A stretch of DNA of 45,530 nt, from the IMG/VR virus record IMGVR_UViG_2721755643_000004; one strand, given 5' to 3'. Below are positions 3,490 through 4,505 of the stretch, piece by piece. Origin of the DNA: a virus. Its lineage: Duplodnaviria; Heunggongvirae; Uroviricota; Caudoviricetes. The position numbers were made by a program, and so were the translations under genes. Under the pieces are notes generated by a model that saw nothing but the letters and a program-made list of their open reading frames with translations, had not been told where the DNA came from and made no database searches. How positions within the stretch are numbered: the stretch's first letter is position 1; every line of letters begins with the position of its first letter.

Positions 3490-4320
3490 TTACTTAACCT
3501 GAATAAATGGTGTGTTGGCACCGCTGGTCATGTACTGCGGCAGTGTGCCGTTCCATTTATTGATGGCTTCCAGCTCCATAACACCGGGGTTCTGGCGCAG
3601 AGCTTCACCGCGTAAACGAATTGCATCGGCTTCGGCCTGGGCTTTTGTGCGAATCGCATCAGCCTGTCCGGCAGCTTCTGCACGCAGCATGTTGGCTTCT
3701 GCTTCGCGTTGTTTAACTTCCTGCTCGCGTTGCAGTGTTTTCTGGTTTGCCGTGACTTTGGCGTTAATGCTGTCGATAACGGTTGGTGGGTACTCTGGCT
3801 TACCCACATATGAGAGGCTCATTACCTGAATACCGATGGGTGTCATTTCTTCCTGGATGTCTTTTAGAGCGGCATCCAGTAATTCAGATTTACCGCCGTC
3901 AATAAATTTGTCGGTGGTCATTTTGCTGGCCAGCCGATTGAGTGCGTCGGCGATCTTCTGGCGCAGGTCGGTGTTGGTAATGTCATCCACGCCTTTGCGG
4001 TAAGTCTGAAACACCGTGGTAACTTTGGATGGATCAACTTTGTAGGCCACGCCGATGTGATAGCCGATGGTTGTGCCGTCACTCATCTGGAAACTGAACG
4101 GTTCATCGTAGGTCTTCATTTGCTTGAAGGTCGGGAAAATGTAAACTTCAGTATTCCAGCCAGTCCAGTAGCGACCAACACCGACCACTTCACCGACACC
4201 TTTGTCGTCGCCCAGTTTGTTGACTTTGATACCCACATTACCTGGTTCAACGCGATCGCAACCTACAAGTTCGAAGACAGCCAGACTGACCGCGAAAACA
4301 AGCGCAATTGTTTTTTTCAT
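3490..4320 (-). CDS. SPFH/Band-7 (prohibitin/HflKC-like) domain lipoprotein (276 aa)
   Basis: Signal peptide with lipobox LVGC; SPFH-like core followed by Ala/Glu/Arg-rich coiled coil; start overlaps stop of upstream small ORF. Confidence 0.8.
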   Translation of the reverse strand: MKKTIALVFAVSLAVFELVGCDRVEPGNVGIKVNKLGDDKGVGEVVGVGRYWTGWNTEVYIFPTFKQMKTYDEPFSFQMSDGTTIGYHIGVAYKVDPSKVTTVFQTYRKGVDDITNTDLRQKIADALNRLASKMTTDKFIDGGKSELLDAALKDIQEEMTPIGIQVMSLSYVGKPEYPPTVIDSINAKVTANQKTLQREQEVKQREAEANMLRAEAAGQADAIRTKAQAEADAIRLRGEALRQNPGVMELEAINKWNGTLPQYMTSGANTPFIQVK

Positions 4321-4505
4321 TTTTCCCTCCCGGGGAAAGAAAGACCCTTATAAATGGCATAAATGCAGGGCGGGGTCAGACACGCCAGAGCAAAGCCAGA
4401 AATCACTGCTACCGTATCCTTCATTGATATGAGGGCCGGAACGATTAATCCGTAAATACATGCGATAATTGCCAGTGATATAACTATTCTGAAATAAATG
4501 TTCAT
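4317..4505 (-). CDS. small membrane protein, two predicted TM helices (62 aa)
   Basis: MNIYFRIVISLAIIACIYGLIVPALI...; stop overlaps SPFH start (ATGA); start codon coincides with IS target duplication. Confidence 0.5.
   Translation of the reverse strand: MNIYFRIVISLAIIACIYGLIVPALISMKDTVAVISGFALACLTPPCIYAIYKGLSFPGREK

What the first reader, a model, noticed from the sequence alone, without database searches (positions are those of the whole stretch)
3490..4505. Translationally coupled small membrane protein plus SPFH-domain lipoprotein module in the early-left accessory region
A 62-aa two-TM protein (4317..4505) overlaps by ATGA the start of a 276-aa lipoprotein (lipobox LVGC) with an SPFH/Band-7 domain and long coiled-coil tail. 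The host SPFH complex HflKC controls lambda CII stability through FtsH, and phage membrane lipoproteins in this region are often superinfection-exclusion factors. A phage-borne SPFH lipoprotein pair could therefore act in lysis/lysogeny control or as a membrane-level exclusion or abortive-infection module. Function is inferred, not demonstrated.
Basis: partly seen in the sequence, partly recalled or inferred. Interest (0 to 1): 0.7.

Follow-up and report, generated by a model that had tools for sequence, protein, structure and literature searches.

The report
Phage SPFH lipoprotein with membrane-hairpin partner
The two genes are real: a lipid-anchored, HflKC/prohibitin-like membrane-scaffold protein and a small two-helix membrane partner, a widespread but functionally untested phage gene pair whose upstream control region in this prophage has been cut off by an IS600 insertion.

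Summary
A 62-aa two-helix membrane protein (4317..4505, minus strand) overlaps by ATGA a 276-aa lipoprotein (3490..4320) that has an SPFH/Band-7 domain and a 65-residue helix.

RefSeq already annotates both genes in E. coli CFSAN029787, in a phiP27-like prophage integrated at yecE.

a 1264-bp IS600 sits 1 bp upstream of the small gene's ATG. It separates that gene from its ribosome-binding site and from the early-left operon.
- **A real, old module:** a partner profile hit only ORFs next to, or fused with, the SPFH gene (108 of 110 hits; the other two were displaced by IS1). Some genomes encode both parts as one ORF.
- **Distribution:** 385 of 50,697 phage records and 571 of 5,426 complete E. 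coli genomes. These include virulent phage groups (N4-like, rV5-like, FelixO1-like, crAss-like).
- **Consequence:** a lysogeny-specific (CII/FtsH) role is unlikely. There is no PADLOC match, and no functional study was found.

Best reading: an early-expressed SPFH assembly on the periplasmic face of the inner membrane, with the hairpin as its membrane subunit. It most plausibly protects the infected cell's envelope or excludes superinfecting phages. Function remains untested. Interest is moderate.

The parts
3490..4320 (-). Gene for the 276-aa SPFH/Band-7 lipoprotein. It comprises a signal peptide with lipobox LVGC (Cys21 codon 4258-4260, Asp at +2, Arg at +3), the SPFH domain (about residues 23-176), a long helix (179-243) and a conserved C-terminal KWNGxLP motif.
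   Evidence: ORF and translation. Pfam PF01145, E=6.3e-31. phrog_200 'lipoprotein', E=3e-113. AF2 model. Foldseek against PDB. RefSeq annotation WP_046880180.1. Cys21, G27, G49, W256 and G258 are invariant in 40 diverse homologues.
4317..4505 (-). Gene for the 62-aa two-helix membrane hairpin partner. Predicted topology is N-in/C-in, with the short periplasmic turn VPALISMKDT.
   Evidence: ORF. Hydropathy. phrog_1130, E=1.2e-23. RefSeq WP_001028875.1. Alignment with P88-type and P1-type partners shares Y4, Y18, P23, I26, S27, V34, G37 and P45. Partner-profile hits are confined to positions next to the SPFH gene.
4317..4320 (-). ATGA overlap: the stop codon of the small gene overlaps the start codon of the SPFH gene.
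   Evidence: Sequence. Annotated coordinates give the same 4-nt overlap in phage Fraca, P88, a 52%-identical Salmonella prophage copy and the N4-like phage KpCHEMY26.
4326..4330 (-). Shine-Dalgarno-like GGAGG, 5 nt upstream of the SPFH ATG. Translation of the SPFH gene therefore need not depend on coupling to the small gene.
   Evidence: Read directly from the sequence: gggagggaaaaATG.
4507..5770 (-). IS600 (IS3 family), 1264 bp. orfA is at 5404-5706 and orfB at 4550-5368, in the same orientation as the pair. It is inserted between the small gene and its native upstream region.
   Evidence: Junctions found by comparison with the uninterrupted relative L004. Transposase Pfam hits rve and HTH_Tnp_1. 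RefSeq labels it 'IS3 family transposase' in this genome and 'IS3-like element IS600 family transposase' in near-identical genomes. A promoter-like site on the minus strand lies at 5755-5727.
4504..4506 (.). Target-site duplication ATG, copy next to the small gene. It overlaps the small gene's start codon (4503-4505 on the minus strand).
5771..5773 (.). Target-site duplication ATG, distal copy.
5774..5781 (-). Displaced native ribosome-binding site of the small gene. It reads AAGAGGAC on the minus strand (AGGAGGAC in the uninterrupted relative) and now lies 1.27 kb from the ATG it served.
   Evidence: Comparison of the window with L004.
4506..4538 (-). In-frame 11-codon extension (MVVSAIASTPH), encoded almost entirely by the IS600 end. 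With the ATG at 4536-4538 it creates a 73-aa hybrid reading of the small gene, starting 12 nt after the transposase stop codon.
   Evidence: ORF list and sequence. The PHROG match starts only at residue 12 of this reading.

Best explanation
This is a conserved phage two-gene module. The large protein is exported, lipid-modified at Cys21 and anchored on the periplasmic side of the inner membrane. Like HflKC, prohibitin, stomatin and flotillin, it most likely assembles through its long helix and its conserved C-terminal KWNGxLP motif into a ring or cage over a patch of membrane. The 62-aa hairpin is its membrane-embedded subunit: its conserved periplasmic turn (P-x-L/M-I/V/F-S-x-x-D/S-T/D) would contact the SPFH domain and supply the transmembrane helices that the lipoprotein lacks.

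The module is transcribed with early genes: the early-left operon here, and DNA-metabolism clusters in virulent phages. It would therefore act early in lytic growth rather than in the resting lysogen. Its most likely output is remodelling of the periplasmic face of the inner membrane of the infected cell. This could fence off a host membrane component so that superinfecting phages cannot deliver DNA, or stabilise the envelope.

In this particular prophage, IS600 has cut the pair off from its ribosome-binding site and its operon. The small protein is probably under-expressed, or made as a 73-aa hybrid.

**Shown:** the gene structure, the SPFH fold, the lipobox, the conservation of the pairing, the fusions, the distribution and the IS insertion.

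**Inferred:** lipidation, inner-membrane location, cage formation, physical contact between the two proteins, early timing and the physiological role.
For: **Fold and family**
- Pfam Band_7, E=6e-31.
- AF2 shows the SPFH domain plus a 65-residue helix. The C-terminus is low-confidence in the monomer yet holds invariant W256 and G258, as expected for an oligomer interface.
- Foldseek gives full-length matches to cage-forming SPFH proteins, E down to 8e-14.

**Lipoprotein**
- The lipobox Cys is invariant in 40 homologues at 31-61% identity.
- Asp at +2 is found in 18 of 22 enterobacterial homologues. Across the wider family, Thr and Ser dominate and Asp accounts for 9 of 109. That pattern fits selection for inner-membrane retention where the Asp rule applies.

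**Pairing**
- All 80 IMG/VR loci carry a partner: 43 of the window type and 37 of a type only 20-23% identical.
- 108 of 110 partner-profile hits are adjacent to, or fused with, the SPFH gene.
- The partner is present in Pantoea, Xenorhabdus, Morganella, Sutterella, Luteibacter, Dyella, Epibacterium and Bacteroidota loci.
- 15 of 150 cluster representatives carry a partner-like domain in the same ORF, and in 14 of these it is N-terminal: hairpin, then a third helix with lipobox, then SPFH.
- The Rhodopseudomonas fusion is modelled as three N-terminal helices followed by SPFH. That places the SPFH domain at the periplasmic face of the inner membrane.

**Timing and generality**
- In prophages of Salmonella, Rhodopseudomonas and Epibacterium, the gene lies in the region bounded by HTH/repressor-type regulators and the integrase.
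- In P88 it lies in the early operon between cox and the replication gene.
- It lies next to RNA polymerase and dUTPase genes in N4-like KpCHEMY26, and among nucleotide-metabolism genes in 4MG and in a 156-kb phage contig.
- A consensus scan of the uninterrupted relative found no promoter-like site on either strand and no terminator-like site on the gene strand.

**IS600**
- Junctions, the 3-bp duplication and the displaced Shine-Dalgarno site.
Against: - No experiment on any member of this family was found. Papers only speculate (PMC8540360, PMC10269572, PMC13239085).
- Only monomers could be modelled. Oligomerisation and contact with the hairpin are untested.
- Arg at +3 follows Asp at +2, so this is not the 'strong' Lol-avoidance signal, which lacks adjacent basic residues (PMC6469965). 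Some relatives have Glu at +2 (4MG, Serratia, Xenorhabdus). An outer-membrane location is therefore not excluded for unfused forms.
- The partner is missing or undetected next to 20 of 128 SPFH loci. Examples are Pseudomonas phage TL and Erwinia phage phiEa21-4.
- The partner profile was searched against a sequence set that contains its own seeds.
- Consensus promoter scans are weak evidence.
- Nothing distinguishes exclusion from other membrane roles. No PADLOC model matches.
Confidence: 0.4

Rival explanations
1. A phage mimic or modulator of HflKC. The periplasmic SPFH assembly binds or cages the host FtsH protease. This changes turnover of CII/CIII-type regulators, or of phage membrane proteins, and so shifts the lysis/lysogeny decision.
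For: - The best sequence match among solved structures is HflK, E=5e-4. Weak HflC/HflK NCBIfam matches also appear.
- The predicted side of the membrane, periplasmic, is the same as for HflKC (PMC2636767).
- The gene lies in the leftward early region. From general knowledge, lambda keeps the FtsH inhibitor cIII in the equivalent operon.
Against: - The family is common in phages of virulent groups, and in P1-like and P2-like phages.
- HflK/HflC equivalog scores are 19-26 bits against cutoffs of 134-660.
- There is one SPFH gene, not a K/C pair, and a lipid anchor instead of an N-terminal transmembrane helix.
- Foldseek ranks prohibitin, erlin and stomatin about as high as HflK/C.
- A more general FtsH-sequestering role, not tied to lysogeny, is not excluded.
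Confidence: 0.15
2. A prophage-expressed defence moron. It would be made in the lysogen to protect it, either by blocking adsorption or injection, or as a membrane-acting abortive-infection system.
For: - Periplasm-facing lipoproteins and small inner-membrane proteins of phages are classic exclusion factors. T5 Llp, phi80 Cor, T4 Imm and HK97 gp15 are examples from general knowledge.
- The gene is accessory and mosaic. It is present in 571 of 5,426 E. coli genomes, in three unrelated temperate phage types.
- phrog_1130 is filed under 'moron, auxiliary metabolic gene and host takeover'.
Against: - No PADLOC-DB v2 model matches either protein at E<=0.1.
- The scan of the uninterrupted relative found no promoter-like site and no gene-strand terminator-like site.
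- The gene is embedded in early lytic operons.
- It is present in many virulent phages, which have no lysogen to protect.
Confidence: 0.12
3. A lysogenic-conversion or virulence lipoprotein. It would be released in outer-membrane vesicles and sensed by host TLR1/2, as reported for the prophage-encoded HflK/C-like protein PM0222 of Pasteurella multocida.
For: - PMC9872710 reports a prophage-island SPFH protein of 25-35 kDa in vesicles. Its deletion attenuates virulence in mice and alters capsule, adhesion and biofilm.
- The window comes from a human stool E. coli isolate.
Against: - Whether PM0222 belongs to this subfamily could not be tested, because its sequence was not retrievable here.
- The family occurs in phages of Caulobacter, Roseobacter, Rhizobium, Desulfovibrio and plant pathogens, where mammalian innate immunity is irrelevant.
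- From general knowledge, bacterial triacylated lipoproteins are in general TLR1/2 ligands, so that read-out says little about the protein's own function.
Confidence: 0.05
4. A membrane-integrity or lysis-timing factor. The SPFH assembly would stabilise the inner membrane or organise microdomains, delaying premature holin triggering or damage during phage development.
For: - SPFH proteins organise membrane microdomains and take part in membrane-stress responses (PMC8581546 and PMC11222466, abstracts seen).
- The family occurs in both virulent and temperate phages of diderm hosts.
Against: - In every context examined, the gene lies in the early, DNA-metabolism or regulatory part of the phage genome. 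It was never seen beside a lysis or structural gene.
- The domain faces the periplasm, away from PspA-type repair machinery.
- There is no direct evidence.
Confidence: 0.15

Closest known systems
HflK/HflC-FtsH complex of E. coli (SPFH3; PDB 7vhp, 7wi3, 9cz2)
   Same: - SPFH fold followed by a long helix, with full-length Foldseek matches at E about 1e-13.
- Best sequence match among solved structures.
- The SPFH domain is predicted to lie on the periplasmic side of the inner membrane.
   Different: - One SPFH gene instead of a K/C pair.
- A lipid anchor instead of an N-terminal transmembrane helix.
- Fails the HflK and HflC equivalog models by a wide margin.
- No evidence of FtsH binding.
- Phage-borne, including in virulent phages.
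SPFH-NfeD operons (QmcA-YbbJ, PDB 8z5g; YqiK-YqiJ; archaeal stomatin-STOPP)
   Same: An SPFH gene is paired with a gene for a small membrane protein, and the pairing is conserved across phyla. The partner is plausibly a subunit enclosed by, or anchoring, the assembly. QmcA is among the Foldseek hits.
   Different: - The partner is a 62-aa hairpin with no NfeD/OB domain and no Pfam family.
- The SPFH domain faces the periplasm, whereas the QmcA-type protein YbbK faces the cytoplasm (PMC2636767).
- The anchor is a lipobox.
PHROG families phrog_200 ('lipoprotein') and phrog_1130 ('membrane protein'); phiP27 L05; Klebsiella phage KpCHEMY26 gp28/gp29
   Same: Direct homologues: E=3e-113 and 1e-23 against the PHROG models, 95% amino-acid identity to phiP27 L05 and 72% to KpCHEMY26 gp29. 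The gene order is the same, and KpCHEMY26 has the same 4-nt overlap.
   Different: None in kind. These are annotation-only families with no known function. The old label 'putative serine protease' is not backed by any protease-domain match here. In the window copy the pair is additionally disrupted upstream by IS600.
Early-expressed exclusion proteins of virulent phages (T4 Imm, a small inner-membrane protein; T5 Llp, a lipoprotein). Functional analogy from general knowledge, not homology.
   Same: Small envelope proteins encoded among early genes, on or facing the periplasmic side, in phages that have no lysogenic state.
   Different: No sequence or fold relationship was tested or is expected. 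Those proteins are not SPFH proteins. An exclusion phenotype has not been shown for this family.
Pasteurella multocida PM0222 (prophage-island HflK/C-like SPFH protein; PMC9872710)
   Same: Prophage-encoded SPFH protein of similar size (25-35 kDa) with envelope-related phenotypes.
   Different: It is reported in outer-membrane vesicles and as a TLR1/2-dependent virulence factor. Membership of the same subfamily, and the presence of a hairpin partner, could not be checked here.

Membership tests
SPFH / Band-7 superfamily (Pfam PF01145) | Sequence match to the Band_7 model above the gathering score | tested here: met
   108.2 bits against a cutoff of 23.6, E=6.3e-31, residues 23-209.
SPFH / Band-7 superfamily (Pfam PF01145) | SPFH alpha/beta fold followed by a long coiled-coil helix | tested here: met
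   AF2 model with pLDDT 78 and a helix over residues 179-243. Foldseek probability 1.00 to prohibitin, HflK/C, erlin, stomatin and flotillin.
SPFH / Band-7 superfamily (Pfam PF01145) | Assembly into a large ring or cage on a membrane | not testable with these tools
   Only single chains could be modelled. The conserved but low-confidence C-terminus (W256 and G258 invariant) is compatible with an oligomer interface.
HflK / HflC (NCBIfam TIGR01933, TIGR01932, NF008181, NF008259) | Score at or above the equivalog cutoff | tested here: not met
   25.5, 22.8, 18.8 and 18.6 bits against cutoffs of 134.4, 159.4, 660 and 427.
HflK / HflC (NCBIfam TIGR01933, TIGR01932, NF008181, NF008259) | Two paralogous SPFH subunits encoded together, each with an N-terminal transmembrane anchor | tested here: not met
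   A single SPFH gene with a cleavable lipoprotein signal peptide. The neighbour is a 62-aa hairpin, not an SPFH protein.
HflK / HflC (NCBIfam TIGR01933, TIGR01932, NF008181, NF008259) | Binding and modulation of FtsH | not testable with these tools
   Needs pull-down assays or CII half-life assays.
SPFH-NfeD operon | Partner protein carries an NfeD domain | tested here: not met
   No Pfam family for the window partner at E<=0.01. No NfeD family among the matches of 14 partner homologues at E<=1.
Bacterial lipoprotein | N-terminal signal peptide ending in a lipobox [LVI][ASTVI][GAS]C | tested here: met
   MKKTIALVFAVSLAVFELVGC. The Cys is invariant in 40 diverse homologues. Actual lipidation was not testable.
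Inner-membrane-retained lipoprotein of Enterobacteriaceae (Lol avoidance) | Asp at +2 with no adjacent basic residue | tested here: inconclusive
   Asp at +2 is present, and is found in 18 of 22 enterobacterial homologues. But +3 is Arg, and the strong signal lacks adjacent basic residues (PMC6469965). Fused forms place the domain at the inner membrane independently.
Phage families phrog_200 and phrog_1130 | Significant full-length match to the family profiles | tested here: met
   E=3.2e-113 (residues 1-275) and E=1.2e-23.
Known or candidate anti-phage defence systems (PADLOC-DB v2.0.0) | Match to any defence-protein model | tested here: not met
   No family at E<=0.1 for either protein or for three neighbouring proteins.
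Moron (autonomous accessory transcription unit in a prophage) | Own promoter and terminator flanking the gene(s) | tested here: not met
   In the uninterrupted relative, no sigma-70-like site was found on either strand and no terminator-like site on the gene strand. Consensus scan only, so weak evidence.
Superinfection-exclusion proteins | Blocks adsorption or DNA entry of incoming phage when expressed | not testable with these tools
   Needs plating, adsorption and DNA-entry assays.

The most novel reading that the evidence does not exclude
The pair builds a previously undescribed kind of SPFH assembly. It would be a lipid-anchored periplasmic cage whose transmembrane pickets are supplied in trans by a hairpin subunit. 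In the fused forms, the two parts might be released from one precursor by signal peptidase II at an internal lipobox. Phages of many diderm hosts would deploy it early in infection to take over the periplasmic face of the inner membrane. One possible purpose is to shut the door on competing phages. Another is to shield the membrane from membrane-acting abortive-infection effectors, which would make it an anti-defence function.
Probability: 0.15. Interest if true: 0.75.

Novelty: new variant of a known kind. Interest (0 to 1): 0.4.

Why it matters
[quoted passage not shown] What they do in bacteria is still largely open.

This lipoprotein subfamily and its hairpin partner are among the more common unexplained phage gene pairs. 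They occur in 385 sequenced phages, spanning N4-like, rV5-like, crAss-like, Lak, P1-like, P2-like and lambdoid types, and in about a tenth of complete E. coli genomes. No phenotype has been reported.

A phenotype would explain why so many phages carry a membrane scaffold. It would also give a small, genetically tractable SPFH system: one subunit type, one partner, and natural fusions. Finally, it would settle the repeated but untested claim that phage SPFH genes signal a temperate lifestyle, a claim that affects safety calls for therapeutic phages.

For this window itself the finding is ordinary: an already annotated accessory gene pair, probably impaired by an insertion sequence.

Tried and rejected
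- **PADLOC scan:** both proteins and three neighbours gave no hit.
- **NCBIfam:** only sub-threshold HflK/HflC/FloT matches. Membership rejected.
- **Pfam on 14 partner homologues at E<=1:** only scattered weak hits and no NfeD. The NfeD-type operon reading is rejected.
- **Promoter and terminator scans:** nothing on the gene strand beside the pair. The only promoter-like site lies inside the IS600 end.
- **Literature:** seven searches found no functional study of a phage SPFH protein. They turned up only genome-paper speculation and the Pasteurella PM0222 paper. The PM0222 sequence (OAZ06802.1) could not be retrieved, so its membership was not tested.
- **Hinderhofer classification of prokaryotic SPFH proteins (PMC2636767):** it does not mention lipoprotein or phage members.
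- **The search for related loci:** The narrower alignment used a single peptide pattern, so the 29 genome loci are a small and biased sample.
- **First script for upstream ORFs:** it picked wrong frames and was replaced by tblastn and a profile search.
- **'Putative serine protease' label:** this old label on phiP27 L05 and many database entries is rejected, because no protease domain matched.
- **stx cargo:** considered and rejected. The tRNA cluster is followed by no Stx-sized ORF.
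Full report
**1. The observation**

The window is a prophage integrated at yecE in E. coli CFSAN029787 (NZ_CP011416.1, 100% identity). It is related to the Stx2e phage phiP27.

On the minus strand, a 62-aa ORF (4317..4505) and a 276-aa ORF (3490..4320) overlap by ATGA. RefSeq annotates exactly these two genes.

The large protein begins with a signal peptide that ends in the lipobox LVGC. It matches Pfam Band_7 at E=6.3e-31. AlphaFold2 models it (mean pLDDT 78) as an SPFH domain followed by a single helix over residues 179-243, with a low-confidence C-terminus. 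Foldseek aligns it over its full length with prohibitin, HflK, HflC, erlin, stomatin, flotillin and QmcA chains, with E down to 8e-14.

The small protein has two hydrophobic stretches joined by a short turn. It matches phrog_1130 at E=1.2e-23, aligned from residue 12 of the 73-aa reading, so 4505 is its native start.

**2.

I compared the window with an uninterrupted relative (E. coli O157 Al Ain, L004). The comparison shows that a 1264-bp IS600 occupies 4507-5770. It is flanked by the 3-bp duplication ATG at 4504-4506 and 5771-5773.

The element sits one base upstream of the small gene's ATG. The native ribosome-binding site (AGGAGGAC in the relative, AAGAGGAC here) now lies at 5774-5781, 1.27 kb from the ATG it served. 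The IS end supplies no Shine-Dalgarno sequence. It does supply an in-frame ATG at 4538, which gives a 73-aa hybrid reading that starts 12 nt after the transposase stop codon.

The transposase genes point the same way as the pair. The only promoter-like site found nearby lies inside the IS end. The SPFH gene keeps its own GGAGG 5 nt upstream of its ATG.

Seven of 5,426 complete E. coli genomes carry this arrangement. In a Shigella flexneri genome and another E. coli genome (L087, L088), the partner lies about 775 nt upstream of the SPFH gene. ORFs typical of IS1 fill the gap in L087.

**3. Is the pair a unit?**

- All 80 IMG/VR loci that encode close relatives of the SPFH protein have a small hairpin gene directly upstream. 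Forty-three are of the window type. Thirty-seven are of a second type, seen for example in the P1-like locus L014.
- The two types share only 20-23% identity. They keep Y4, Y18, P23, I26, S27, V34, G37 and P45.
- I built a profile from 16 partners and searched all 17,378 ORF pieces of at least 35 aa in 128 loci. It hit 110 pieces. Of these, 108 lie immediately upstream of, or are fused to, the SPFH gene on the same strand. The other two are the IS1-displaced cases, and there were no hits elsewhere.
- The seeds are part of the searched set, so this measures specificity rather than serving as an independent test.
- The partner accompanies SPFH homologues of 40-55% identity in Xenorhabdus, Morganella, Sutterella, Luteibacter, Dyella, Epibacterium, Muribaculaceae and Bacteroidales loci.
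- Among 150 cluster representatives of the subfamily, 15 carry a partner-like domain in the same ORF. In 14 of these the order is hairpin, then a third hydrophobic helix ending in the lipobox Cys, then SPFH.
- The Rhodopseudomonas palustris example is a called 354-aa gene in a prophage. It is modelled as three N-terminal helices followed by the SPFH domain.
- With the hairpin N-in/C-in, the third helix carries the SPFH domain to the periplasmic side. This is the same topology as the separate lipoprotein.
- Twenty of 128 loci, mostly the most distant ones, show no detectable partner. They include Pseudomonas phage TL and Erwinia phage phiEa21-4.

**4. The family**

A full HMMER scan of 1.84 billion cluster representatives found 223 clusters at E<=1e-30 and 2,977 at E<=0.001. 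This is therefore a bounded subfamily, not the whole SPFH superfamily.

Most members are 270-300 aa long and carry a signal peptide and a lipobox. In 40 diverse members the lipobox Cys, G27, G49, W256 and G258 are invariant. The last two lie in a C-terminal KW(N/D)GxLP motif.

Asp follows the Cys in 18 of 22 enterobacterial members. Across the wider family Thr and Ser dominate, and Asp accounts for only 9 of 109. This suggests selection for inner-membrane retention where the Asp rule applies. However, Arg at +3 means this is not the 'strong' signal described for E. coli (PMC6469965), and some relatives have Glu at +2.

The protein fails the HflK and HflC equivalog models. Its partner has no NfeD domain and no Pfam family.

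**5. Where it occurs**

- tblastn finds the family in 385 of 50,697 phage records.
- Temperate types include lambdoid phages (phiP27, Stx2 phages, Fraca), the P2-like phage P88 and P1-like phage-plasmids. Burkholderia phi1026b also carries it.
- In P88 the pair lies in the early operon between cox and the replication gene. In the P1-like loci it lies upstream of the DnaB-type helicase gene, with tRNA genes on either side in L014.
- Many members belong to virulent phage groups. These include N4-like Schitoviridae, where KpCHEMY26 gp28 is annotated '2 TMDs N in C in', gp29 is the lipoprotein, the two overlap by 4 nt, and the SPFH protein is 72% identical to the window protein.
- They also include rV5-like Vequintavirinae. 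In 4MG the partner gp235 is separated from the lipoprotein gp233 by one gene.
- The remaining groups are FelixO1-like, Bruynoghevirus, phiCbK-like, crAss-like and Lak phages.
- A 156-kb phage contig with ribonucleotide reductase and homing endonucleases carries the pair as well.
- Prophage copies in Salmonella, Rhodopseudomonas and Epibacterium lie in the region bounded by HTH/repressor-type regulators and the integrase.
- The gene is in 571 of 5,426 complete E. coli genomes, at 418 chromosomal and 241 plasmid places. On plasmids it is almost always on non-mobilizable replicons of about 90-110 kb.
- In every context examined it lies in the early, DNA-metabolism or regulatory part of the phage genome. 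It was never seen beside a lysis or structural gene.
- A consensus scan found no promoter or terminator of its own.

**6. Interpretation**

*Solid.* This is a phage-borne SPFH lipoprotein with a dedicated membrane hairpin partner, and the pair is old and widely exchanged between phages.

*Inferred.* It probably forms a ring or cage at the periplasmic face of the inner membrane, with the hairpin as its transmembrane part. The grounds are the family fold, the conserved but monomer-disordered C-terminus, the fusions and the coupled translation.

*Physiological role.* The role is open. A lysogeny-specific role through CII/FtsH does not fit the presence of the gene in phages of virulent groups and in P1-like and P2-like phages. 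A prophage-expressed defence moron does not fit the operon position or the virulent carriers, and no PADLOC model matches.

I consider an early-acting function in the infected cell the most likely. This could be exclusion of superinfecting phages at the DNA-entry step, or protection of the inner membrane. From general knowledge, early exclusion proteins such as T4 Imm and T5 Llp are functional analogues, not relatives. I rate the whole chain at about 0.4. Most of the uncertainty lies in the last step.

*Rivals still open.* A general FtsH-sequestering role, a lysis-timing role, and a host-directed role like that of Pasteurella PM0222 (PMC9872710) all remain possible.

**7. Novelty and score**

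The genes are already annotated. phiP27 L05 is the same gene, and the phiP27 record labels it 'putative serine protease'. Several genome papers note phage SPFH genes and guess at lysogeny or entry functions (PMC8540360, PMC10269572, PMC13239085). I found no experiment on any of them.

What seems not to have been described is the conserved pairing with the hairpin, the fused forms and the lipid-anchored architecture. I therefore file this as a new variant of a known kind (SPFH-plus-partner operons).

For this window the finding is ordinary, and the module is probably impaired by IS600. As a family it is a reasonable target for experiment. Interest: 0.4.

Noticed in passing
window 4507-5770 (duplications at 4504-4506 and 5771-5773): A 1264-bp IS600 is inserted 1 bp upstream of the small gene's ATG. 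It moves the native Shine-Dalgarno site 1.27 kb away and creates a 73-aa in-frame hybrid reading that starts in the IS end. Seven of 5,426 complete E. coli genomes share the arrangement.
   Followed up: yes
L087 about 5230-6000; the same arrangement in L088: In Shigella flexneri SFBU1023 and E. coli ECMA0423 the hairpin gene lies about 775 nt upstream of the SPFH gene. In L087 the gap holds ORFs typical of IS1, and the C-terminus of the hairpin protein is altered. This is a second, independent IS hit on the same module.
   Followed up: partly
window about 3523-4269 versus 4270-4505; L014 3784-4060; L085 5795-5998: There is a mosaic boundary inside the module. DNA similarity to the P1-like and P2-like copies covers only SPFH residues about 18-266. 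The signal peptide and the partner gene are replaced together by an allele only 20-23% identical at the protein level.
   Followed up: partly
L116 8001-9065 (Rhodopseudomonas palustris prophage); representatives P0152, P0157, P0159, P0169, P0173 and others: Some single ORFs encode the hairpin, a third helix ending in an intact lipobox Cys, and the SPFH domain. Most have no internal Met before the signal-like helix. This raises the question of whether signal peptidase II cleaves an internal lipobox.
   Followed up: partly
P0105 and P0111 (alignment A1): One subgroup has Tyr in place of the lipobox Cys (IIGYDRVEPG). One of the two clusters is seen on 175 contigs, with contigs of about 110-250 kb. 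The lipid anchor seems to be lost in this lineage.
   Followed up: no
P0162 (344 aa): The partner-like domain matches at the C-terminus (residues 282-334) instead of the N-terminus. This could be a reversed fusion or read-through into the next gene. A C-terminal hairpin would have the wrong topology.
   Followed up: no
L001 (phiP27 NC_003356) about 3304-3492; L086 (P1-like MH422554) about 4775-5010: The hairpin partner gene is present in the DNA but not annotated in these records. The family is under-called.
   Followed up: partly
window 19453-19762 and 19763-20660: A cluster of four tRNA genes (Met, Arg, Thr, Gly) is followed by about 680 nt with no Stx-sized ORF, and then by a 71-aa hydrophobic ORF (possible holin, 20443-20658), with a lysozyme gene further on at 21515-22048. 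This phiP27-like prophage at yecE appears to be stx-negative.
   Followed up: partly
window 2697-3446 (-): An ORF6N/anti-repressor-like gene lies directly downstream of the SPFH gene. The same neighbour follows the pair in phage Fraca.
   Followed up: no
window 2131-2700 (-): A 189-aa early-left protein has weak similarity to the DNA polymerase III beta clamp (TIGR00663 E=1e-4; Pfam DNA_pol3_beta_2 E=0.007). Its PHROG family is nevertheless labelled 'RusA-like Holliday junction resolvase', so the annotations are inconsistent. A full-length DnaN-like gene also lies near the SPFH gene in the Rhodopseudomonas prophage.
   Followed up: no
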